Part shown: positions 2,658 to 16,673 of the stretch, in pieces
How positions within the stretch are numbered: the stretch's first letter is position 1
How the letters are laid out: the number at the start of each line of letters is the position of its first letter
NCBI GenBank assembly: GCA_039922695.1
Contig: JBDTEG010000013.1
Location: 6,233 to 70,232 of the forward strand
From: Rhodanobacter sp.
GTDB taxonomy: Bacteria > Pseudomonadota > Gammaproteobacteria > Xanthomonadales > Rhodanobacteraceae
Length of the DNA stretch: 64,000 nucleotides
Reading direction: 5' to 3'
Made by a program: the position numbers and the translations under genes
Notes under the pieces: model-generated
What the model was told of the DNA's origin: nothing
The model's input: only the letters and a program-made list of their open reading frames with translations
Database searches by the model: none

Positions 2658-3202
2658 TGCCAGTGCTCCCGCTCCGCGTCACTCTTGCCTTGGCCGTGCA
2701 GGATGAGATCGCAAACTTCGCGGGCGGCGCCTTCACCACCGCGCTGACGGGTCTGCCAATGTGCTGCCTCGACGATCCACGGGTGCGCATTGGCGACAGC
2801 CACCGCCATCCCCACCATACGCATCGGTGCCAGGTCGGGCAGGTCGTCGCCCACGTAGGCGACCTGCTCGGCTTGCAGATGCAGCGCGTCCAGCAGTTCC
2901 CGCAGGCAGGCCCTCTTGTCGCCCTGGCCCTGGTAGACATGGGCAATGTCCAGTTCCTCGGCACGCAGGGCGACGGGATGACTGATCCGGGCGGTGATCA
3001 ACGCGACCTCCACGCCATGGGCCCGGAGGCGCTTCAGGCCGAGCCCGTCGTGCACATGGAAGACCTTGGTCTCGTGACCGTCCTCGGCGTACCAGAGCCG
3101 CCCGTCGGTCAGGGTGCCGTCCACGTCGAATACTGCCAAGCGGATTTTCGCGGCGCGGGAGAGCAAGTCGTCGGTGAAGTCGGGGGGCGAGTCGGGGAGC
3201 AT
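2654..3202 (-). CDS. kdsC: KDO 8-phosphate phosphatase (HAD family)
   Basis: FDVDGTLTDG, VHDGLG and GDDLPD motifs; adjacent to kdsD. Confidence 0.92.
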   Translation of the reverse strand: MLPDSPPDFTDDLLSRAAKIRLAVFDVDGTLTDGRLWYAEDGHETKVFHVHDGLGLKRLRAHGVEVALITARISHPVALRAEELDIAHVYQGQGDKRACLRELLDALHLQAEQVAYVGDDLPDLAPMRMVGMAVAVANAHPWIVEAAHWQTRQRGGEGAAREVCDLILHGQGKSDAEREHWQ

Positions 3203-3274
3203 GGTCCGGGCTTGCGTAATGGTGAGCGTCAAAAGCAGGCGTGCCTGATTTGTGATTCGTCCAGACGAGTCAGA

Positions 3275-4285
3275 TCAGACCACACGAGCGCGGAGCAGAT
3301 CATGAATGTTCAGTGCGCCGACCACGTGTCGCTCGTCGTCCACCACCAGCAGCGCGTGGATCTGGTGTTTTTCCATAAGCTGCGCGGCCTCGGCCGCCAG
3401 CCGGTCGGCACCGATCGTCTTGGGACCGCGAGTCATCAGCTCGGCCACGAGGGCGCCACGCAGGTTCACGCCCTCGTCGTCCAGCGCGCGACGCAGGTCA
3501 CCATCGGTGAACACCCCGACCAGGCGCTGGTCGGCATCGATCACCGCGGTCATGCCCAGATGCTTGCGGGTCATCTCCATCAGAGCGGCGGTGAGTGTGG
3601 CATCCGGCGACACCATTGGGACATCGTCGCCAGTGTGCATCACGTCGCTGATGTGCAGCAGCAGGCGGCGGCCCAGCGCGCCGGCCGGGTGTGAGCGGGC
3701 GAAATCGTCCGAGGTGAATCCGCGTGCCTCCAGCAGTGCGATCGCCAGCGCATCGCCCAGCACCAGCGCCACCGTCGTGCTGGTCGTGGGCGCCAGGCCC
3801 AGCGGACAAGCTTCGCTTGAAATGCTGCCGTCCAGGTGCACGTCTGCCTCGCGCGCCAGTGACGAGTGGGGTTTGCCGGTGATCACGATCAGTGGAATGC
3901 CCTGACGCTTGATGAGCGGCAGGATGAACAGCAATTCGTCGGTTTCGCCTGAATAGGACAATGCCAGCACCACGTCCTCAGGCAAGATCATGCCGAGGTC
4001 GCCGTGGCTTGCCTCGCCGGGATGCACGAAGAACGCCGGCGTGCCGGTGGAGGCGAGGGTCGCCGCAATCTTGCGCGCCACGTGCCCCGACTTGCCCATC
4101 CCGCTGACGACGACGCGGCCACGGCAGGCCAGGATCAGACGGCAGGCTTCGACGAAATGGGTGCCGATCCGCGGCTCGAGCGCGCCAATCGCGGTCGCTT
4201 CCGTGGCGATCACCGTGCGCGCGCTGCGCGTGATGGCTTCGGGGCTAAGGTCGGTCGGCGCGGGCGGGGCGATGCGTGCGTTCAT
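3275..4285 (-). CDS. kdsD: D-arabinose 5-phosphate isomerase (KpsF/GutQ; SIS + CBS domains)
   Basis: GMGKSGHVARKIAATLASTGTPAFFVHPGEASHGDLG, C-terminal CBS pair. Confidence 0.95.
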   Translation of the reverse strand: MNARIAPPAPTDLSPEAITRSARTVIATEATAIGALEPRIGTHFVEACRLILACRGRVVVSGMGKSGHVARKIAATLASTGTPAFFVHPGEASHGDLGMILPEDVVLALSYSGETDELLFILPLIKRQGIPLIVITGKPHSSLAREADVHLDGSISSEACPLGLAPTTSTTVALVLGDALAIALLEARGFTSDDFARSHPAGALGRRLLLHISDVMHTGDDVPMVSPDATLTAALMEMTRKHLGMTAVIDADQRLVGVFTDGDLRRALDDEGVNLRGALVAELMTRGPKTIGADRLAAEAAQLMEKHQIHALLVVDDERHVVGALNIHDLLRARVV

Positions 4286-4464
4286 GGGGGCTCGGGTGGG
4301 GGAGAGTCGACACCGGCGCCGCTGGCGGACCGCCGTCGTTTCTGTGCCACAGGAATTCCATTACCATGGCATATTCATATTTTAACGTCATATGCCAGCC
4401 ACATGGTGCCGCGCCGCGCGGAAATCCATGATCGCGCCGGCCCGACCTCCTTACGGAACGCCCG

Positions 4465-6079
<1,615 letters not shown>

Positions 6080-6105
6080 CGCGTCATCACCACCGGACAG
6101 CACAG

Positions 6106-6429
6106 TTGATGGCGTTCTATTGGCGATTGAAGGACATCCCGGAATTGCAGGCCACGCCACCGGCAATCCAGCGACGCTTGTGGAGCGAAGCGGTGACACG
6201 CAGCCTTGCCCCACGCTACCTGCTTCTGCTGTTCGCCAACTTCCTGCTCGGCATCTTGACGTGCGCGCTTGCCGTGTACCTGCTCGGATTCGGTGAGCAC
6301 GCCTGGTGGTGGGCGCTGCTCGGACTCCCGCTGGCCGGCATACTCAACGACTATCTGGTGACCCAGCCGCGAGCACGCGGCTGGTTGCGCGAGCATGCCG
6401 GCGAACTGGATCGCTACGTGACTACTTGA
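6106..6429 (+). CDS. hypothetical membrane protein (about 2 TM)
   Basis: 107-aa ORF with two hydrophobic segments following murA. Confidence 0.55.
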   Translation: MMAFYWRLKDIPELQATPPAIQRRLWSEAVTRSLAPRYLLLLFANFLLGILTCALAVYLLGFGEHAWWWALLGLPLAGILNDYLVTQPRARGWLREHAGELDRYVTT

Positions 6430-6433
6430 AGCG

Positions 6434-7135
6434 TCATGGCGACTGGAAGCTCACCAGCTCCATCACCAGGTCGCCGCCATCGTGCTGCGACAGCTTCACC
6501 GGCAGCGGGTAGCGCACGGGGGCATACCAGGCGCTGAAGCCGCGCTCGGCGTCGGTGCGGTCGACCCGTTCTGCATCGAAGCTGCCGGCCGGAACGTTCA
6601 CGGTTTCCTTGCCGGTTACCTTGAATTGCTGGGTCTCCACTTTCTGGCGCACCGCAACGGCGAGCGCTACCTGTTGCTTGCCGGCCTGCAGCGCCACGCC
6701 CAGTGCCAGCGGCAGGGTGTTGCGCTCGACGATGCCCGGCTTGGCCGCATAGGTCTCGGTGCCCTTGCTGCCATCGACGCTGACCTGGTTGGTGCTCCAG
6801 TCGACGCGCAGGTGGCGCTGCTTGCTCTTGATGCCGGTGTGCAGCTCGTAGTCATAGCCGAGTGCTTCGGGCAGGTCGCCCTTCCAGCGAAACCGTGACG
6901 TTTCGTCCGTGCTGGCGCCAAGCATTGCCGCCAGGCCAGCGGTACCCTTGATGTTCTTGTGGTAAGTCCACTGCCCGTTGCCATCGTCGTGCAGGCTGAT
7001 GGTAGCGGTCCCCAGCGGGCTGCCGCCGCGCGAAACCTTGTAGGTGGCGGTGAAGGCCGTCGGCGTAGCGGCATTTGCCGTGCCGCAGAGCAGGGCAAGT
7101 CCGAGCAGGGGGAGGAGCAGGCATTGGGTTCTCAT
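6434..7135 (-). CDS. DUF3108-like exported protein
   Basis: Signal peptide; TVNVPAGSFDA and WYAP..YPLPVK motifs typical of DUF3108; downstream of purN. Confidence 0.7.
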   Translation of the reverse strand: MRTQCLLLPLLGLALLCGTANAATPTAFTATYKVSRGGSPLGTATISLHDDGNGQWTYHKNIKGTAGLAAMLGASTDETSRFRWKGDLPEALGYDYELHTGIKSKQRHLRVDWSTNQVSVDGSKGTETYAAKPGIVERNTLPLALGVALQAGKQQVALAVAVRQKVETQQFKVTGKETVNVPAGSFDAERVDRTDAERGFSAWYAPVRYPLPVKLSQHDGGDLVMELVSFQSP

Positions 7136-9026: not shown

Positions 9027-10028
9027 GTGCCCATGCGCCTGCCCCGCCTGTTTATCGCTTTCCTGCTGCTGTGCCTCGCCGCGCTGCCGCCGTTGCACGC
9101 GCAGGCCGCCGGTTCACCTTATTCGGTTACGGTGCCGGTCCCCGATACCAGCGATGCGCAGCGCAGCCAGGCTTTCTCGACGGCGCTGGCGCAGGTCATG
9201 ACGCGTGTCGCCGGTGGCCAGGATCTGCGCAGCAACCCCGGTTATGCCGAGGCTCTGGGCAGCGCCAGTTCGCTGGTGCAGAAGTTCCAGTACCAGCGTG
9301 CCGCCACCGGACTGGTGCTGGACGTGGATTTCGCACCGGCCTCCGTGCGTCGCCTGGTGACTCAACTGGGCGTGACCAGCGCGGGCATCAAGCCGCCGGT
9401 GTTGCTGCTGGTGCAGCGCGCTGACGGCAGCATGGTTGACCAGGCCACGTTGGCGAGTCTGGCCACCACGGCGGCTGCGCGAGGCACAAACGTGGTGTAT
9501 CCGGCGCCCGCGAGCCAGATCGATACAGCCAAGGTGGCGGCGGCCGATCCGGCGGCGCTGGCGGCCATCAACCGGCAGTACCACACAGGCCTGGTGTTGT
9601 TGGGCAAACTGCATGATGGCAAAGCCGACTGGACGCTGATTTCCGGCGGCCAGGTGCAGCACTGGAGCCAGCAGGAAACCAGCGAAGAGGCGTTGCTCGC
9701 GGCAGCCGGCAACGGCATGGCTGATCGCCTCAGCCAGCAGCTGAACGTGATCGGGTCGGTTGCCAGCGAAGGCAAGCTCTGGGTGAGCGGGCTGGAGTCG
9801 GCTGCTGACTACGCCAGCCTGCTGGCCACGCTCAATGCCGACCCCTCGGTGCAGCAAGTCACGACCGCCGGCGCGCTGAACGATGGCGTGCTGCTCGACG
9901 TCAAGGCGTCGGTGCCGATGAATGCCTTGGCCGCGAACCTCGCCGCCAGCGGACGCCTGCTGCTGCAAGGGCAGCCGCATGACGGCGCGGACGCCAATCT
10001 GCGCTGGCTGCACGGAATTTCGCCATGA
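9027..10028 (+). CDS. DUF2066-like exported protein
   Basis: Signal peptide; occupies the usual slot divergent from purM and upstream of the AI-2E transporter and hda. Confidence 0.65.
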
Positions 10029-11194
10029 ACCAGACGCGTGAGGTATCGCGCCGCTGGCAACTGCTGGCGATCACGGTGGTCATCGTCTACCTGATCTGGC
10101 TGCTGTCGCCGGTGCTGATGCCGTTCGCGGTAGCAGCGATGCTGGCGTATCTGGGCGATCCGCTGGCCGATCGGCTGGAGCGGATGGGACTGAACCGCAT
10201 GTGGGCATCCACGATCGTCTTCGTGGTGTTGCTGGTCGCGGTCATTGGCGTGCTGGTGTTGTTGATTCCGTTGATTGCGCGGCAGGTCGAGAATCTCATC
10301 AGCAACCTGCCACGCTACGGCGACTGGGCACAGCACGTGGCATGGCCATGGCTGCAGGCCAAGCTGCACCTGGATGCGAACATGTTCGACAGCGATCGCC
10401 TGGTGACGATGATCAAGGCGCACATCGGCTCGATTGGCGGCGTGGCGACCGTGGTACTGGGCACGGTATCGCGCTCCGGCGTGGGTATCGCCATGTGGCT
10501 GACCAACCTGGTACTGATTCCGGTGGTGGCGTTCTACCTGCTGCGCGATTGGGATCGCCTCGTGTCCACAGTCGACGGCATGCTGCCGCGTTCGGTGCAA
10601 CCGACCATCGCGCACCTGGCGCGCGAGTCGGACCACATCCTGGGCGCCTTCGTGCGTGGCCAGCTGTTGGTCATGTTGGCACTGGGTGTGTTCTACGCTG
10701 CCGGGCTGGGTTTGACGGGGCTCTCGGTCGGGCTGCTGATCGGCATCGTCGCCGGTCTGCTCAGCTTCGTGCCTTACCTGGGTTTCATCATTGGCTTCGT
10801 TGCCGCCATCATCGCTGTGCTGGTGCAGTTCGGCGACTGGACGCATGTGTTGCTGGTCTGCGCTGTGTTTGCCGTGGGCCAGTTGCTGGAGGGATACGTC
10901 CTGGTACCCAAGCTGGTCGGCGACAAGATCGGCCTGCATCCGGTGGCAGTGATCTTCGCGGTGCTGGCCGGCGGTTACCTGTTCGGATTTCTCGGCGTGC
11001 TGCTGGCCCTGCCGGCCGCCTCGGTGATCGTGGTGTTGCTGCGCTACCTGATCGAACGGTACCGGAGGAGCGAGCTGTACACCGAGGAGGGAGCGGACGA
11101 TCCGGTGATTGCCGCAGTCGAGGTCGAAGTGCACCAGGACGGCGACACCGACACCCTCGTCGTGCCCTCGCCGGAAAGCCGACCCACCGAATGA
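10025..11194 (+). CDS. AI-2E (PerM) family transporter
   Basis: Multi-TM protein; FVRGQL, PYLG and GLHPVAVIFAVLAGG motifs. Confidence 0.88.
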   Translation: MNQTREVSRRWQLLAITVVIVYLIWLLSPVLMPFAVAAMLAYLGDPLADRLERMGLNRMWASTIVFVVLLVAVIGVLVLLIPLIARQVENLISNLPRYGDWAQHVAWPWLQAKLHLDANMFDSDRLVTMIKAHIGSIGGVATVVLGTVSRSGVGIAMWLTNLVLIPVVAFYLLRDWDRLVSTVDGMLPRSVQPTIAHLARESDHILGAFVRGQLLVMLALGVFYAAGLGLTGLSVGLLIGIVAGLLSFVPYLGFIIGFVAAIIAVLVQFGDWTHVLLVCAVFAVGQLLEGYVLVPKLVGDKIGLHPVAVIFAVLAGGYLFGFLGVLLALPAASVIVVLLRYLIERYRRSELYTEEGADDPVIAAVEVEVHQDGDTDTLVVPSPESRPTE

Positions 11195-11889
11195 ACCCGC
11201 AGTTGCCGTTGGCCTTGCGCTGGCCGCGTCGCCAGCGTTTCGAACATTTCCATGCCGACGCCAATGCTGCCGCGGTGGATGCGGTCCGAACGCTTGCCCT
11301 CGAACCGGGCGCACCATGGATCTTCCTGCACGGCCCCGGCGGTAGCGGTCGCAGCCACCTGCTGCTGGCTGCGTGCCACGCCGCCACCGCGGTCGGTCGA
11401 CGCGCGCAGTACCTGCCACTGGCCACGATGAGCGATCACGCTGATCTTCTGCGTGGCGTGACCGGCAGCGAGCTGCTGGCACTGGACGACCTCGGCGTCA
11501 TCGCGGGCGACCACGAAGCCGAACACGCCTTGTTCGACCTATACAACCGACTGCGGGCGGATGGTGCGGCGCTGTTGTTCGCTGCCGACGTGTCGCCAGC
11601 TCGTCTCCTCATTGACCTGCCCGACCTGCGCTCGCGTCTCGGCGCCTGCACCCAGTTTGGGCTGAAACCGCTTGATGACAGGGAACGTCGGAATGTGCTC
11701 CGGGCGGGGGCAGCTGCTCGCGGCATCGAACTGGACGACAGCGTGCTGGACTGGTTGTTTGCGCGCTATGCCCGGGATCTTGGGGCGTTGCTGGATCTGC
11801 TGGATCGGCTGGACCACGCCTCGCTCGCGGCGCAGCGGCGGATCACGATTCCGTTCTTGCGCGAGCTGTTGCGTGATTCCCTCGTGTAG
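11191..11889 (+). CDS. hda: DnaA regulatory inactivator Hda
   Basis: N-terminal clamp-binding QLPLAL, AAA+ core, PDLRSRL, RRITIPF; conserved purM-DUF2066-perM-hda order. Confidence 0.93.
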   Translation: MNPQLPLALRWPRRQRFEHFHADANAAAVDAVRTLALEPGAPWIFLHGPGGSGRSHLLLAACHAATAVGRRAQYLPLATMSDHADLLRGVTGSELLALDDLGVIAGDHEAEHALFDLYNRLRADGAALLFAADVSPARLLIDLPDLRSRLGACTQFGLKPLDDRERRNVLRAGAAARGIELDDSVLDWLFARYARDLGALLDLLDRLDHASLAAQRRITIPFLRELLRDSLV

Positions 11890-11908
11890 GAGCGCACCCT
11901 GTGCTCGA
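11886..11908 (+). repeat. single degenerate GTAG-type REP arm
   Basis: GTAGGAGCGCACCCTGTGCTCGA matches the REP arms at 50495 and 22720; no partner arm visible; its TAG is the hda stop. Confidence 0.75.
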
Positions 11909-12176
11909 TGCTGTTCGCGGTGTAGTTGTGATCGAATTCGCGTGAAAAACGTCGAGAGCCCGCGGCTTCAGTCACCTTTCTGGCGTGTTCGAGAGAACAG
12001 CAATCCAAAACAGAACGGACACACAACGATATGCCCGCTGCCATTTGCATACTTGCAACCTCGGCTGCGGCCAACGCAGTTGTGCATCATGGCGACGTTG
12101 CTGATGCAAACAAGCAACCAGCGCAAGCGTACACGCCGACGACCGACTGACGAGCTGGTTTTCGCGGCCAATCAGC

Positions 12177-12749
12177 TCATCCCAGTCGCCGACGCAGCGT
12201 CACGAATCCACCGATCAGCAATGCTCCCAAGGCAAACATTCCCAACGCAGCAGGCTCGGGCACGCTCGCGAAAGCAGGAGAGATGTAGCCTTTGAAATTC
12301 TGCAGAATCCTTGTGGATGTTCCGGTGTCGAGAATCCCCGAGCCGCCCTGGCGGATCACGCCTCCTTCAAATCCGACCAGCGAGCCCACCTCGGGGGTGG
12401 TAAGGAGACTGAACGACACTTGCTCCGGTGACCCAAATGGATCGAGTCTGCCATTGCCCAGACCTACAAGCCACTGGCCCGACGACGCTTGCTGGCTGAG
12501 AATCATGTTGAACGCAGGCAGCGCGGGAAAATCCGCAACCAGGATGTCCATCGACGATATCTCGCCAGCGACCGTGTCCACCAACATCACGCCGCTGAAG
12601 GTACCGCCGCCCGGGAGGAAACCGTTATTCCATTGCCCCTCGACATCGAACGACGTCGGTGTTGCCCCCGCAAGCGCCGGCAGGAATGCTGCGACAACAA
12701 GGCCCGCGAGCATGACCCGCTTCAATGATTTCAGCTTGACCTGTTTCAT
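12177..12749 (-). CDS. PEP-CTERM sorting domain protein
   Basis: Signal peptide; C-terminal VPEP + hydrophobic helix + RRR (SVPEPAALGMFALGALLIGGFVTLRRRLG); AGGAGG RBS. Confidence 0.85.
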   Translation of the reverse strand: MKQVKLKSLKRVMLAGLVVAAFLPALAGATPTSFDVEGQWNNGFLPGGGTFSGVMLVDTVAGEISSMDILVADFPALPAFNMILSQQASSGQWLVGLGNGRLDPFGSPEQVSFSLLTTPEVGSLVGFEGGVIRQGGSGILDTGTSTRILQNFKGYISPAFASVPEPAALGMFALGALLIGGFVTLRRRLG

Positions 12750-13121
12750 GCTCGACCTCCTGATGATCGCAGCGACGGGTTATCACGCTACCTGAGTGAA
12801 AGCGCCGGAGGGTTGAACACATCAACACGGCTCGCGCTTCTGCCGTGAGATGCAACGGACGCCTCCGACGTTCCCGAGCGTCACATCAGTGACGCGATTC
12901 GAGCTGTCGCCGCACTCCAGCGACCCACATGGGTTAACCGATACTCCAGCCGCGGCCGGGCCAGACGCGGTCTGCCGGAGCGGGCTCAAACGGGTGGTGA
13001 ACAACCGGTGGTTTGGCGTAGTACTTGCGTTCGCTGCGACAGGCGCATCGCGAGTTTCGCGCGGTCAATGACCAGAGCAATCTTCTCGCGAACACTTGCG
13101 ACCGCTCTCCGTGCACGGTGA

Positions 13122-14378
13122 TCACAAGGTTTTCAGGTACTGCACCAGGTCACTCTTCTGCCGGGGCGTAAGCCACAACTTCTGTTTCGTGTTGTAAGCC
13201 TCCACGACATCCGCAAGCGTCGCCGCAGAGCCATCGTGGAAGTACGGTGCGTGTTGCCACAGACCGCGCAGCGGTGTGGTGCGGTACAGGCCAGTCGCTG
13301 AACGGGCCACGTAGAGCGCGTCCTTGGCCGCCGAGGCTGTAGGCGCGTGCAGCCTCTCGTTGGCGTCGGTGAAGTGCGGGCCACTGTGGCAACTCGAGCA
13401 GCCGGCATCCTTGAACACCAGCTTTCCGCGCTTCGCTGCGGCGGGCTCGAAGCTTCCTGCCGGCGGTGGTGGCGCCGCAATCGACAGTTGATACGCCTGC
13501 AGCGAGGCCAGCGCGCTGCTGGTCATGTCCTTGGTCCCGTTTACCACCAGCATTCCCGGGTGCCAGGTCGGCGCCAGGCCTGGGGTATGCGGGTTCAAAT
13601 GGGTGCCGACCCGCGGATCCGAAAACACGCCCTGTCCGCCCATCTGGGTCACCGCCACGTAGCGGTTCCAATACGAGAGATTGGGGCCGTCGCCGGTATA
13701 TACGACGCGATTCACGCCGGCCAGTCCGTACGCCGGCGGTATTACTGCCGGACTGCTGAGACCATCGACGTTCCAGCGCGCGTCATACATGCCAGGACCC
13801 CACGAATTCAATTGGGCCTTTTGCGCGTCGGAGAGGACCGGTGACAGCGCGACGATCGCGCCGGGGTTGAGGTCGTGGTTGGGCCAGCCATCGAGCCGGT
13901 GGCCGATGCCGGGTGCGAACGAATTGTCCACCGTCGAGTGGCACAGCGCGCACGTGACACCGAAGCGGGTCAAGGTGTCCTTGCCGTTGACGTTCTCGAC
14001 CGTAGCCTGGGCGCCTACCACCGCGTTGAGTTTCAGCAGGGCGACCGTGATGGCCGGGTCATCCAGGTTGACGCTGCCGTCCGCAATGCCGTTCTTCACC
14101 GCATCGGGCAATGCGTCGACATCCACTTTCAGGCCGACTGCCAGCGCGGTTTTCGGGCTGACGGTGCTGATGACCTTGTCCATGTGCAACTGGTCCGTCC
14201 AGTGGATCTCATCGCCGAACGTGTCGTAGCGAAAGACCTGCTGGCCCTGCTTGATCAACGCTGCATGGCTTGCCGGCTGGCTCTGTCTGGTCGCCGCATA
14301 GATCGCGCCGACCGAGGTGGCGAGCAGCGAGAAACTGCCAGCGACCAGTACGGAGAAAATCTTTACCTTCTGTTCCAT
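13122..14378 (-). CDS. periplasmic di-heme c-type cytochrome (bCcP/MauG-superfamily-like)
   Basis: Signal peptide; two CxxCH motifs (CALCH, CSSCH); C-terminal YRTTPLRGLWQHAPYFHDGSA. Confidence 0.8.
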   Translation of the reverse strand: MEQKVKIFSVLVAGSFSLLATSVGAIYAATRQSQPASHAALIKQGQQVFRYDTFGDEIHWTDQLHMDKVISTVSPKTALAVGLKVDVDALPDAVKNGIADGSVNLDDPAITVALLKLNAVVGAQATVENVNGKDTLTRFGVTCALCHSTVDNSFAPGIGHRLDGWPNHDLNPGAIVALSPVLSDAQKAQLNSWGPGMYDARWNVDGLSSPAVIPPAYGLAGVNRVVYTGDGPNLSYWNRYVAVTQMGGQGVFSDPRVGTHLNPHTPGLAPTWHPGMLVVNGTKDMTSSALASLQAYQLSIAAPPPPAGSFEPAAAKRGKLVFKDAGCSSCHSGPHFTDANERLHAPTASAAKDALYVARSATGLYRTTPLRGLWQHAPYFHDGSAATLADVVEAYNTKQKLWLTPRQKSDLVQYLKTL

Positions 14379-14545
14379 CGCGTTACCCTCTGGAATTTGG
14401 TGGTGTACCGACGATTCCACTGTTGCCTTGATCCAAGCCGAAGCCGGCCACACGTCGAAGCGACCGGCATGGGTTCGTCAACCGGCGGAACAGCAGTCAC
14501 AGCCCAGCCGTATAGGCTCAACGTGACTGGCGTGGCTATGCGGGA

Positions 14546-15100
14546 TCAACGGCGAGACGTGATGCTGCCGCGAAAGTTCTGCAGATAAATGGGCCCGTAG
14601 CCATAACCGAGGTCGATCGGCCCGCTGTTGCTGCCCTGCATGAACGAGCCTCCGCTGAAGCCGACCAGCGAACCCACCGGCGTGCCGAGGCCGGGATAGC
14701 TGACTGGCGATTGCCGCGTCGTGAACTGGAACTGCACCTGCTGCCCTTTTGCATTGAGCAGCGTCACGTCGTATTTGAGCGGCGTGATGCCGCTGATTTC
14801 GGGACCTTGCGCCACGATCTGGTTGAAGGCCGGAACGCCCCAGAGAAACGGGAACCTGACCGCTATCGAGATCACGCGGCCAACGTGGCCGAAAGACGGG
14901 TCCGCGAAATTCGGGTCCACGCTCATCGTGCCGACGAACGGAGTCGCGAACCGTGCAGGACCGCTGAAGAGCTGCGCTTGTCCATGGATGTAGAAGGACT
15001 GCGTTGGCGTTGCGGCGGCTGCGATAGCCGGAGCCAAGGCACCCATCGCCAGACCGCACAGCAAGGACTGTTGCAAAGACTTCACGCTGATCGATTTCAT
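14546..15100 (-). CDS. exported protein, paralog of the PEP-CTERM protein at 12177 but without the sorting tail
   Basis: Signal peptide; shares PAFN-I--Q, VGSLVGF-GG and LQNF-G-I blocks with 12177..12749. Confidence 0.7.
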   Translation of the reverse strand: MKSISVKSLQQSLLCGLAMGALAPAIAAAATPTQSFYIHGQAQLFSGPARFATPFVGTMSVDPNFADPSFGHVGRVISIAVRFPFLWGVPAFNQIVAQGPEISGITPLKYDVTLLNAKGQQVQFQFTTRQSPVSYPGLGTPVGSLVGFSGGSFMQGSNSGPIDLGYGYGPIYLQNFRGSITSRR

Positions 15101-15496
15101 TGCCCTATCTCCCAATGGTTCGCCATACGAGGGCTGGTCAGGTGGTCGCAAACGCCGTGGAAGCGACGCTGCCATCCGACTTGAACCGTGATGACTCACC
15201 GCCACGTTCCGGTGAATTGCCCCATTGCCTTGAGGTCGTTGCAGCCGGGAGCCAGACGGACCGGGGCCACTATGCGTCCTGCACTGGGTTAGACGCGGCG
15301 ACCGCAGGAAAGGTTACAGAGCGCAATACGGGACGCCGCGAAAAGAAGTCGGCTTGGCGCGTTGAGCGAAAAATATCGTGGCGGCGTGGGATTCGGTGGT
15401 TGTGTCAAATTGCTCAAGACATCGGCATTTCGCCCAAGCTGTTCCACGGCGGCAAAGGCCGTGTCGTCGCGATCGCGCGACGCGCGATCAGGCGCT

Positions 15497-15858
15497 GGCG
15501 ACCACGAAGCCAAACACGCCTTGTTCCACCCTTGCAACCGAGTGCGGGCGGATGGTGCGGCGCTGTTGTTCGCTGCCGACGCGGCGGCAGCCCATCTCCT
15601 CACCGAGTTGCACGACCTGCGCTCGAGTCTTGGCGCGTGCACCCAGTTTGTGCTGAAGTCGCTCGATGGCAGGGAACGTCGGAACGTGCTCCGGGCGGGG
15701 GCCGCTGCTCGCGGCATCGAGCTGGACGACACCGCGCTGGACTGGCTGCTTGCGCGTAATGCGCACAGGATCCTGGAGCGTTGCTGGACCTGCTGGATCG
15801 GATCCACCACACCTCGCTGTTGGCGCGGCGGCGGATCACGATTCCATTCTTGCCCGAG
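15497..15858 (+). pseudogene. hda: decayed duplicate of the 3' half of hda
   Basis: Direct repeat of 11506..11865 (about 48 substitutions plus a 2-nt insertion over about 360 bp by manual alignment); no 5' half; frameshift near 15762. Confidence 0.9.
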
Positions 15859-15956
15859 GTCCTGCAAACGGCCGCGCAGAAACGTCCGCAGGCGCTGCGT
15901 GCTGCAGTTTGGTCGGGTCGTTCGTTCCGTCTCGGCCAACGTGTCGCATGCCACGG

Positions 15957-16673
15957 TCAGCCGGGACAGGTGCCGGCTTCTTCGGCGTCAAGCTGAGCCA
16001 TCACGGCGTCGGTGACGCGGGCACAGCGCAAGCCCATGAAGGGAAATGCTTCGCCCAAGGTGCTGGCCAGGCGATCATGCAGCGACAGGCGCAACAGGCG
16101 GCGCGCACGATGCAGGCGAGTCTTCACCGTTTCCGCCTTGATGCCGAGCTGGCTGGCGGTCTCTTCCACAGTGTATTCCTCGACCTCGCGCATCATGTAG
16201 ACAACGCGAAAGGCCGTCGGCAGCTTGTCGATGGCGTGCTCGAGCAAATGACGGATCTCCGTGCGCGCCGCAGCGGCAGCGGGGTCCTCGCTACCGTATT
16301 TCGAAGGAAACTGGATGATCTGATGGGTATCCTCAGACGCCGCGTCGACCTGCTCCAGCCCGACCGTGGTGCGGCGCTTGCGCAAGCGGCCGCGGGCCTC
16401 GTTCAGCACGATGGTGGTCAGCCAGGTCAACAGGGTCGAATCGCCGCGGAACGAACCCAGCTTGTGGTATGCACGCATATATGACTCCTGCAACACATCC
16501 TCGGCCTCCGAGTCCTCGCCGATCACGGCACGCGCGACACGGAACAGGCGCTGGTTGCAGCGCTGCATGATGTGGCGGAATGCTTCGCGCTCGCCGCTAC
16601 GGACGAGTGCGACCAGCGCGTAGTCGCCCAGCGTGGTGTAGTCGACGGCGGCAACACGGGCATGAATTGGCAT
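15957..16673 (-). CDS. ECF-type sigma-70 factor with short Cys-containing C-terminal extension
   Basis: Region 2 (AEDVLQESYMRAY, TWLTTIVLNEAR), region 4 (ETVKTRLHRARR), tail EAFPFMGLRCARVTDAV; AAGGAG RBS. Confidence 0.9.
   Translation of the reverse strand: MPIHARVAAVDYTTLGDYALVALVRSGEREAFRHIMQRCNQRLFRVARAVIGEDSEAEDVLQESYMRAYHKLGSFRGDSTLLTWLTTIVLNEARGRLRKRRTTVGLEQVDAASEDTHQIIQFPSKYGSEDPAAAAARTEIRHLLEHAIDKLPTAFRVVYMMREVEEYTVEETASQLGIKAETVKTRLHRARRLLRLSLHDRLASTLGEAFPFMGLRCARVTDAVMAQLDAEEAGTCPG

What the first reader, a model, noticed from the sequence alone, without database searches (positions are those of the whole stretch)
11506..15858. 3.6-kb cargo bracketed by two copies of the hda 3' half
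Seen: 11506-11865 (intact hda) and 15497-15858 form a direct repeat of about 360 bp, with about 48 substitutions and a 2-nt insertion (manual count, about 86% identity). The second copy has no 5' half and is frameshifted. Many differences are synonymous third-position changes (aat/aac, gca/gcc, gaa/gag, ccg/cca), mixed with non-synonymous ones. Between the copies lie three minus-strand genes for exported proteins. The REP after hda has lost its partner arm. No integrase or transposase is present. Inference: the block was captured by recombination into hda, with a related lineage's hda end either replacing or trailing the native one. A replication-control gene would thus act as an anchor for gene acquisition without an integrase.
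Basis: partly seen in the sequence, partly recalled or inferred. Interest (0 to 1): 0.68.

Follow-up and report, generated by a model that had tools for sequence, protein, structure and literature searches.

The report
Old insertion flanked by duplicated hda end
A 3.6-kb block of three exported-protein genes sits between the replication-control gene hda and a sigma-factor gene in one Rhodanobacter lineage, flanked by two copies of hda's own 3' part; this is an old in-lineage duplication with one copy decaying, not a captured foreign hda allele, so it is a fairly ordinary structural scar.

Summary
11502-11872, inside the intact hda, and 15493-15865 are direct repeats, 86% identical, with a 2-nt insertion in the second copy. 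They flank three minus-strand genes and no mobility gene.

In an ML tree with 20 relatives' sequences the two copies are sisters (support 100/99) on a long shared stem. They share 19-22 derived bases that the nearest relatives lack. Copy A evolves under purifying selection (omega about 0.16). Copy B evolves neutrally (omega about 1.2) and continues colinearly into the native intergenic region and the ECF sigma gene. All nearest relatives (hda 84-87% aa) have hda, then about 80-105 bp, then the ECF gene: an empty site.

So a lineage-specific insertion duplicated about 370 bp of the lineage's own hda. Copy B is the decaying leftover.

The cargo is composite: two separately distributed units, p190 and p219 plus a di-haem cytochrome. 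Each carries its own conserved ECF-type promoter, and both landed beside the matching sigma gene.

The mechanism is inferred, not shown. My best guess is a single crossover with a circular DNA carrying an hda piece. Only 2 of about 370 family genomes have any extra hda 3' copy, so hda is not a general anchor.

The parts
11191..11889 (+). Intact hda (DnaA regulatory inactivator), 232 aa. The last codons and the TAG stop are supplied by a REP element.
   Evidence: TIGR03420 scores 241.5 bits (cut-off 194.8), covering profile positions 1-225 of 226. Pfam finds Hda_lid and Bac_DnaA. Omega is 0.16 on its branch since the duplication.
11502..11872 (+). Repeat copy A: the 3' part of the working hda.
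   Evidence: It has 12 synonymous and 5 non-synonymous derived changes.
11886..11942 (+). Truncated REP doublet (REPIN). The left arm and loop are intact. The right arm is cut after TCGCG.
   Evidence: Aligned to nine intact doublets from the same genome. The family has 140 copies, 112 of them paired.
11943..12176 (-). 3' flank of p190, with two terminator-like hairpins (12039-12014 and 12140-12117).
   Evidence: Homology to other p190 loci begins at 12114-12169.
12177..12749 (-). p190: an exported protein with a PEP-CTERM sorting tail.
   Evidence: PF07589 and TIGR02595. Homologues at 72-91% aa are solitary genes in three other genomic contexts.
12849..12875 (-). ECF-type promoter motif GGGAAC-N16-GCATC upstream of p190.
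   Evidence: The same motif lies upstream of ECF, folE and DUF4142. Four of the 10 genome hits fall in this 4.6-kb stretch. The motif is conserved 126-137 nt upstream of p190 homologues in L198, L202 and L205.
13122..14378 (-). Di-haem cytochrome c enzyme, distantly like RoxA, MauG and cytochrome c peroxidase.
   Evidence: PF21419 and PF00034. The NCBIfam matches are partial and below cut-off. Orthologues at 84-86% aa occur in two Rhodanobacter MAGs.
14546..15100 (-). p219: 184 aa from the conserved ATG, with a signal-peptide-like N-terminus. It is a paralogue of p190 without the PEP-CTERM tail.
   Evidence: Always found directly upstream of the cytochrome in L032-L037.
15288..15318 (-). Conserved ECF-type promoter TGTAACC-N15-GCGTCTAAC of the p219-cytochrome unit.
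   Evidence: Conserved in G000, L032 and L033, while the sequence further upstream is unrelated.
15373..15492 (.). About 120 bp of unplaced filler between the p219 unit and copy B.
   Evidence: No similarity to L032 or L033, to the own genome, or to relatives. No Pfam match.
15493..15865 (+). Repeat copy B: an hda 3' pseudogene at the native position, with a 2-nt insertion near 15767.
   Evidence: It has 23 non-synonymous and 7 synonymous derived changes, omega 1.23. It is the sister of A.
15866..15956 (.). Native hda-ECF intergenic region, continuing from copy B.
   Evidence: It aligns colinearly with the intergenic region of L118 (shuffle p = 0.002) and with G005.
15957..16673 (-). ECF sigma factor, orthologous to the gene that abuts hda in relatives.
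   Evidence: Pfam and NF008888. 96% aa to L118 and 85% to G008.

Best explanation
This is an old insertion-duplication specific to this Rhodanobacter lineage.

Shown:
- The ancestral state was hda, then about 80-105 bp, then the convergent ECF sigma gene.
- In this lineage 3.6 kb now separates the two genes.
- About 370 bp of the lineage's own hda 3' part is present twice.
- The upstream copy completes the working gene and is under purifying selection.
- The downstream copy is the leftover, still attached to the native intergenic region. It has decayed neutrally for about 0.08-0.15 substitutions per site.
- The cargo is two separately distributed promoter-gene units: p190, and p219 plus a di-haem cytochrome. 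Each has a conserved ECF-type promoter like those of the adjacent ECF/folE/DUF4142 cluster. The block probably extends that sigma factor's regulon.

Inferred:
- The duplication arose in one step. A circular or circularised DNA carried the cargo next to a piece of same-lineage hda and recombined once inside hda (Campbell-type integration).
- The crossover used either RecA or a site-specific recombinase whose gene was later lost.
- A REP doublet later landed on hda's tail, giving the present stop codon. A further deletion then cut that doublet, erasing the original left junction.
For: Empty site:
- G005, G008 and G011.
- L118 is 89% nt identical over DUF2066-perM-hda and 96% aa in ECF.
- L208-L212 show the same empty site.

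Sister copies:
- 22 derived sites are shared by A and B, against 2 and 1 for the alternatives.
- 19 remain when L210 is added.
- ML tree support is 100/99.

Selection:
- A has pS 0.124 and pN 0.019.
- B has pS 0.072 and pN 0.088.
- Fisher p = 0.002.
- Codon-position spread of derived changes: B 13/13/6, A 3/2/8.

B is at the native position.

The Campbell signature is present: the upstream copy keeps the gene's 5' side, and the downstream copy keeps the native 3' flank.

Cargo units and promoters.

GC content dips to 58-61% in the cargo, against 64-68% in the flanks.

REP history.
Against: - No circle, integrase, att core or plasmid relative was found.
- The left junction has been overwritten by the REP doublet, and both junctions are too old to read microhomology.
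- The cargo is composite, so more than one insertion may have occurred. A one-step model is then no longer clearly the most parsimonious.
- The source of a circle carrying an hda piece is unexplained.
- No closer relative exists in any searched collection to show an intermediate state.
- Reads could not be inspected.
Confidence: 0.5

Rival explanations
1. Duplication and insertion were separate or replicative events. One version: a plain tandem duplication of hda's 3' end arose first, and the ECF-promoter units were later inserted at or near its join. Another version: a replication template switch copied the cargo from elsewhere in the same cell and then re-entered hda 370 bp upstream.
For: A family member, G196, has a plain 1.79-kb tandem duplication whose left edge lies about 150 nt before the end of hda. 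This leaves an hda 3' fragment downstream. The cargo is composite: p190 and p219-cytochrome occur separately elsewhere. The REP doublet was also inserted and cut, so several events hit this spot anyway.
Against: Unselected tandem duplications are usually lost quickly by recombination. Two or more independent hits on one join need a hotspot or selection. No second copy of the cargo exists in the 90%-complete assembly to serve as a template.
Confidence: 0.25
2. Decayed integrase-borne island of the e14/icd type. An element that targets hda and carries a replacement 3' end integrated site-specifically. The integrase and most of the element were later deleted. Copy A's 3' part would then be element-borne and B native.
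For: The geometry is the same as icd-e14-icdC: the gene is completed by the proximal copy, and the displaced C-terminal pseudogene lies at the far end (PMC13626634; Hill et al. 1989, PMC210168). Homology starts abruptly with a 15-nt identical block at 11506-11520. A's pS (0.124) is slightly above B's overall rate (0.084), leaving room for a few per cent of divergence before the event.
Against: No recombinase gene or fragment is present. A and B are sisters on a long private stem, so any element must have picked up its hda piece within this same lineage. No other Rhodanobacter or family genome has an hda-targeted island. 370 bp is long for such a carried gene end.
Confidence: 0.12
3. Linear DNA from a related lineage was captured by one-sided homologous recombination in hda (homology-facilitated illegitimate recombination). 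One of the two hda ends would then be a foreign allele.
For: This is the model proposed for displaced 3' ends in V. cholerae T6SS and Rhs arrays (PMC5361080). The cargo has lower GC and is rare in the genus, in 3 of 96 species genomes.
Against: The two copies share 19-22 derived sites that every relative lacks, and they form a 100/99 clade. B's branch has omega 1.23 and B is colinear with the native flank, so it is not an imported working allele. A's 5' and 3' halves show no break in similarity to relatives beyond what all relatives show.
Confidence: 0.06
4. Assembly artefact: a chimeric metagenome-assembled contig joining two strains at hda.
For: G000 is a 221-contig, 90%-complete assembly. 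No identical proteins exist on other contigs.
Against: At 86% identity with one 39-nt exact block, the copies are too different to confuse an assembler. B is frameshifted and carries 23 non-synonymous changes, many at positions invariant in 17 relatives. That is pseudogene behaviour, not a co-existing strain's allele. Both flanks of the block are syntenic with relatives.
Confidence: 0.03

Closest known systems
Campbell-type insertion-duplication: single-crossover integration of a circle carrying an internal gene fragment, as in laboratory suicide-vector integration and in F' or specialised-transducing-element re-integration. This description rests on my own knowledge.
   Same: An insert is flanked by direct repeats of one contiguous gene segment. 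The upstream copy is joined to the gene's 5' part and the downstream copy to the native 3' flank. Both repeats derive from one sequence.
   Different: No vector, element backbone or replication or mobility gene remains. It is natural and old, at about 0.1 neutral substitutions per site. The upstream copy stayed functional because the segment reached almost to the stop codon. The circle itself is hypothetical.
e14 / phage 21 integration into icd of E. coli: icd - prophage - icdC pseudogene (PMC13626634; Hill, Gray and Brody 1989, PMC210168).
   Same: A housekeeping gene is kept intact by the proximal copy of its 3' end. The displaced C-terminal fragment survives as a pseudogene at the far end of the insert, in direct orientation.
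   Different: No integrase and no prophage genes are present. The repeat is 370 bp. The two copies are sister sequences from the same lineage, not a host allele plus an element-borne allele. Excision was not tested.
Displaced ('orphan') 3' ends in Rhs, CDI and T6SS effector-immunity arrays, proposed to arise by homology-facilitated illegitimate recombination (PMC5361080; PMC3967940).
   Same: An intact gene is followed by newer DNA and then by an old 3' fragment of the same gene. No mobility genes are needed.
   Different: In those arrays the incoming 3' end is a different allele with a new function. Here the copies are the same allele, and nothing in hda is variable or polymorphic.
Plain tandem duplication reaching into hda's 3' end, as seen in family member G196 (locus L213).
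   Same: An hda 3' fragment in direct orientation lies downstream of the intact gene. The copies diverged to 72-90%.
   Different: In G196 the whole 1.79-kb unit, including the neighbouring gene, is repeated. In the window only the hda segment is repeated and the 3.6 kb between is unique.

Membership tests
Integrase-mediated island with a carried gene 3' end (e14/icd type) | A tyrosine or serine recombinase gene, or a remnant of one, inside the insert | tested here: not met
   Pfam on the three genes and on nine spare ORFs of the non-coding parts found no recombinase or transposase.
Integrase-mediated island with a carried gene 3' end (e14/icd type) | Direct repeats of the target gene's 3' end at both borders, with the gene intact at the proximal border | tested here: met
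Integrase-mediated island with a carried gene 3' end (e14/icd type) | The proximal 3' end is element-borne, so it has a different history from the native 5' part and from the displaced copy | tested here: not met
   A and B are sisters (support 100/99). There is no break between A's 5' and 3' halves relative to outgroups.
Integrase-mediated island with a carried gene 3' end (e14/icd type) | An identical att core at the start of the repeat, and excision as a circle | tested here: inconclusive
   A 15-nt identical block sits at the left edge, but the only long exact block (39 nt) is internal. Excision cannot be tested without reads.
Campbell-type insertion-duplication | One contiguous target segment in direct repeat around a unique insert, with the outer flanks colinear with the empty site | tested here: met
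Campbell-type insertion-duplication | Both repeat copies derive from the same or nearly the same sequence at the time of the event | tested here: met
   Shared stem of 0.14. B is neutral throughout. A's pS is comparable with B's rate.
Campbell-type insertion-duplication | Existence of the circular donor carrying the segment | not testable with these tools
   No plasmid match beyond distant cytochrome homologues. No closer relatives were found.
Homology-facilitated illegitimate recombination with a foreign anchor | The anchor-derived copy is a donor allele distinguishable from the recipient's | tested here: not met
Homology-facilitated illegitimate recombination with a foreign anchor | Microhomology of a few bases at the illegitimate junction | tested here: inconclusive
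   The right junction (about 15475-15493) is GC-rich and eroded. The left junction is overwritten by the REP doublet.
Simple tandem duplication | The entire unit between the repeat starts is present twice | tested here: not met
   Only 370 bp is repeated. The 3.6 kb between is single-copy in the genome. Contrast G196.
Regulon of the adjacent ECF (ECF29-like) sigma factor | The GGGAAC-N15-16-GCATC type promoter, upstream and correctly oriented | tested here: met
   For p190, an exact motif lies 126 nt upstream, conserved in three other genomes. For p219-cytochrome, a related TGTAACC-N15-GC(G/A)TC is conserved in three Rhodanobacter. Transcription itself was not tested.

The most novel reading that the evidence does not exclude
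Self-contained ECF-promoter gene units (promoter, gene, terminator, no mobility functions) may be repeatedly relocated next to their sigma-factor gene. The route would be integrase-free and RecA-dependent insertion-duplication, using a piece of the neighbouring core gene (here hda) as the homology handle. This would be a general way for a regulon to collect its members at one locus.
Probability: 0.06. Interest if true: 0.6.

Novelty: new member of a known kind. Interest (0 to 1): 0.27.

Why it matters
The main value is as a corrected reading. A striking repeat of a replication-control gene's end is not a recombination anchor bearing a foreign allele. It is the scar of one old rearrangement, and simple outgroup polarisation tells the two apart.

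Two modest points remain of interest:
- The displaced 370-bp pseudogene has survived roughly 0.1 neutral substitutions per site. The working hda meanwhile acquired a REP-supplied stop codon, which shows how tolerant Hda's C-terminal tail is.
- Both inserted units carry conserved promoters of the class used by the adjacent ECF sigma cluster. The event therefore physically gathered regulon members next to their regulator. It also gives testable candidates for the still unexplained function of this ECF group: a di-haem cytochrome enzyme and two paralogous exported proteins.

Tried and rejected
1. Extending the repeat past hda's stop into the intergenic region. A's downstream 'TGATCGAATTCGCGTG' resembled G005's intergenic region. 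The shuffle test gave p = 0.076, and the stretch turned out to be the loop and right arm of a REP doublet. Rejected.
2. Mobility-gene remnants or RNA genes in the non-coding parts: none found.
3. The cargo on plasmids: only distant cytochrome homologues on megaplasmids.
4. Independent assemblies of the same locus through exact-protein look-ups of hda and p190: none on record. The nearest hda among 5.8 billion proteins is 87% identical.
6. Target-gene duplications flanking the p219-cytochrome unit in other genomes (L032-L037): none, so the hda scar is not a property of that unit.
7. An 'old home' of the unit in G000. The site syntenic with L033's ECF-paralogue-p219-cytochrome locus (C29, between an SDR gene and an FAD monooxygenase gene) holds other genes. 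There is no empty scar.
8. The idea that relatives lost the cargo by recombination between the repeats. Rejected because the A/B split is younger than the split from those relatives.
9. Second matches of the hda C-terminus in other family genera: these are DnaA (27-30% identity), except in G196.
Full report
**Observation.**
The window has perM (10025-11194), an intact hda (11191-11889), and three minus-strand genes. A second hda-like stretch follows, then a minus-strand ECF sigma gene (15957-16673), folE and DUF4142. The repeat finder reports direct repeats 11502-11771/15493-15762 (87%) and 11770-11872/15763-15865 (83%). The spacing changes from 3991 to 3993, so copy B carries a 2-nt insertion (alignment). 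Over 371 columns the identity is 85.7%. Only one exact block is 20 nt or longer: 39 nt at 11552-11590. hda is complete by NCBIfam TIGR03420, at 241.5 bits against a cut-off of 194.8.

**The site in relatives.**
The organism is a Rhodanobacter, judging from the record titles of related loci. In G005, G008 and G011, hda is followed within about 40-105 bp by the convergent orthologue of this ECF gene. The closest sequence found anywhere is metagenome contig L118. It is 89% nt identical over DUF2066-perM-hda and 96% aa in ECF, and it has the same empty arrangement. So do the contigs carrying the two nearest Hda proteins in a 5.8-billion-protein collection (86-87% aa): L208/L209 and L210-212. There hda is followed after about 80 bp by ECF, then folE, DUF4142 and cupredoxin. 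The 3.6 kb plus copy B is thus an insertion specific to this lineage.

**Which copy is native, and is either foreign?**
- Copy B continues colinearly into the native intergenic region and ECF. Its downstream 95 nt align with L118's intergenic region (shuffle p = 0.002) and with G005's.
- I polarised every A/B difference against 17 same-genus hda genes. B has 34 derived changes spread 13/13/6 over codon positions, plus the indel. A has 13, of which 8 are at third positions.
- Adding L118, A and B share 22 derived states. A shares 2 with L118 and B shares 1. With L210 added, 19 shared states remain.
- An ML tree of the repeat places A and B as sisters with 100/99 support, on a stem of 0.14. The branches are 0.06 (A) and 0.15 (B).
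- By parsimony counts, A has 12 synonymous and 5 non-synonymous changes (pS 0.124, pN 0.019, omega about 0.16). B has 7 and 23 (pS 0.072, pN 0.088, omega about 1.2). Fisher p = 0.002.
- Both copies therefore descend from one sequence of this lineage. B has been non-functional for essentially its whole separate history.
- The neutral distances on the two branches are similar, so the copies were identical or nearly so when they formed. This contradicts the idea that a related lineage's hda end came in with the cargo.

**The left junction has been rewritten.**
- hda's homology to B and to relatives stops at about 11872. The last codons and the TAG stop come from a REP element (core 11886-11908).
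- This REP family has 140 copies in the genome. 112 of them are in inverted pairs about 73 nt apart.
- Aligned to nine intact doublets, the copy after hda has its left arm and loop. It is cut after the first five bases of the right arm, at 11942/11943.
- So a REP doublet was inserted on hda's tail, and a later deletion removed its end and whatever lay beyond. The original junction is lost.
- An apparent extension of the repeat into this stretch was not significant (p = 0.076). The REP doublet explains it.

**The cargo.**
The cargo is not one mobile block.
- The p219 plus di-haem cytochrome pair (13083-15372) has 79-82% nt counterparts in two other Rhodanobacter MAGs (L032, L033). More distant ones occur in Luteimonas and other Lysobacterales.
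- Only 3 of 96 Rhodanobacter species genomes carry p219, each in a different context. In L033 it follows a paralogous ECF sigma gene (55% aa) on the same strand.
- Cytochrome homologues lie within 8 kb of an ECF gene in 33 of 80 loci. In G001, G003, G015 and G031 they lie beside an ECF paralogue.
- p190 has 72-91% aa homologues that are solitary genes in three other contexts. Nucleotide homology is confined to about 12114-12897, that is, promoter to terminator.
- The adjacent ECF, folE and DUF4142 genes share GGGAAC-N15-16-GCATC upstream. Four of the 10 genome-wide hits (8 expected by chance) lie in this 4.6-kb stretch. The fourth is 126 nt upstream of p190 in the right orientation. The motif is conserved at the same distance in all three foreign p190 contexts.
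- p219 has a related TGTAACC-N15-GC(G/A)TCTAAC, conserved in the three Rhodanobacter carriers while the sequence further upstream is unrelated.
- GC content is 58-61% in the cargo against 64-68% in the flanks.
- The block probably adds members to the neighbouring sigma factor's regulon. Transcription was not tested.

**No mobility functions.**
- Pfam finds nothing in the spare ORFs, and Rfam finds nothing.
- A plasmid search finds only distant cytochrome homologues.
- No flanking target duplications surround the p219-cytochrome unit in other genomes.

**Is hda a recurrent anchor?**
- Among 24 genus relatives searched with DNA and 300 family genomes searched with protein, second matches are DnaA, with one exception.
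- The exception is G196, in another genus. There a 1.79-kb unit made of the last 150 nt of hda plus a 410-aa exported repeat protein gene is tandemly duplicated.
- That is a plain tandem duplication. It shows hda 3' fragments can arise without any capture mechanism.

**Mechanism.**
- What is shown is geometry and history, not enzymology.
- The geometry is the classical product of one crossover between the chromosome and a circle carrying that segment: a unique insert between direct repeats of one contiguous segment, the proximal copy attached to the gene's 5' side, and the distal copy attached to the native flank. I take this as the most economical single-event explanation (confidence about 0.5). 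The catalyst could be RecA or a lost recombinase.
- The geometry equals icd-e14-icdC (PMC13626634). It also resembles the displaced 3' ends of Rhs and T6SS arrays, attributed to homology-facilitated illegitimate recombination (PMC5361080). Those involve, respectively, an integrase and a different incoming allele. The first is absent here and the second is contradicted.
- The cargo is composite and the locus has suffered at least two later events. A duplication-first, insertion-later history, or a replicative template switch, therefore remains a serious rival (about 0.25).
- An assembly artefact is unlikely on evolutionary grounds.

**Verdict.**
The insertion is real and no integrase is present. 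The foreign-allele and general-anchor ideas are not supported.
- This is a new instance of a known kind of scar.
- Two side points are mildly interesting: the clustering of ECF-promoter units beside their sigma gene, and the REP-derived stop codon of hda.

Noticed in passing
window 11886-11942: hda's TAG stop codon and last residues come from a REP element. The REP doublet is truncated inside its right arm. The family (core GTAGGAGCGCACCCTGTGCGCGA) has 140 copies in the genome, 112 of them in inverted pairs about 73 nt apart.
   Followed up: yes
window 12849-12875; L198 about 7875, L202 about 7864, L205 about 7875: The p190 family (PEP-CTERM protein) keeps GGGAAC-N16-GCATC 126-137 nt upstream of its start in three unrelated genomic contexts. 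It looks like a conserved, self-contained target of this ECF sigma class.
   Followed up: partly
window 15288-15318; L032 and L033 upstream of the p219 homologue: A conserved TGTAACC-N15-GC(G/A)TCTAAC promoter-like element precedes p219-cytochrome in all three Rhodanobacter carriers. In L033 the unit follows a paralogous ECF sigma gene (55% aa) that G000 lacks.
   Followed up: partly
L213 (G196:C4) 3201-6745: A different genus of the family has a tandem duplication of a 1.79-kb unit: the last 150 nt of hda plus a 410-aa exported repeat protein gene. The copies are 72-90% identical, and the duplication sits between hda and suhB.
   Followed up: partly
80 loci L032-L111: Homologues of the di-haem cytochrome lie within 8 kb of an ECF sigma gene in 33 of 80 genomes. 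These are mostly Burkholderiales, and DUF4142, cupredoxin and FNR-like genes are often nearby. This suggests the cytochrome is a frequent member of this regulon.
   Followed up: partly
G000 contig C29:6190-9005 (outside the window): L033 has ECF-paralogue-p219-cytochrome between an SDR (PhaB-like) gene and an FAD monooxygenase gene. At the syntenic site G000 has other genes, including a 298-aa protein with a CxxCH motif. This is a variable locus.
   Followed up: no
window 15373-15492: About 120 bp between the p219 promoter region and copy B matches nothing in relatives, in the other p219 loci, or in the own genome. Its origin is unknown.
   Followed up: partly
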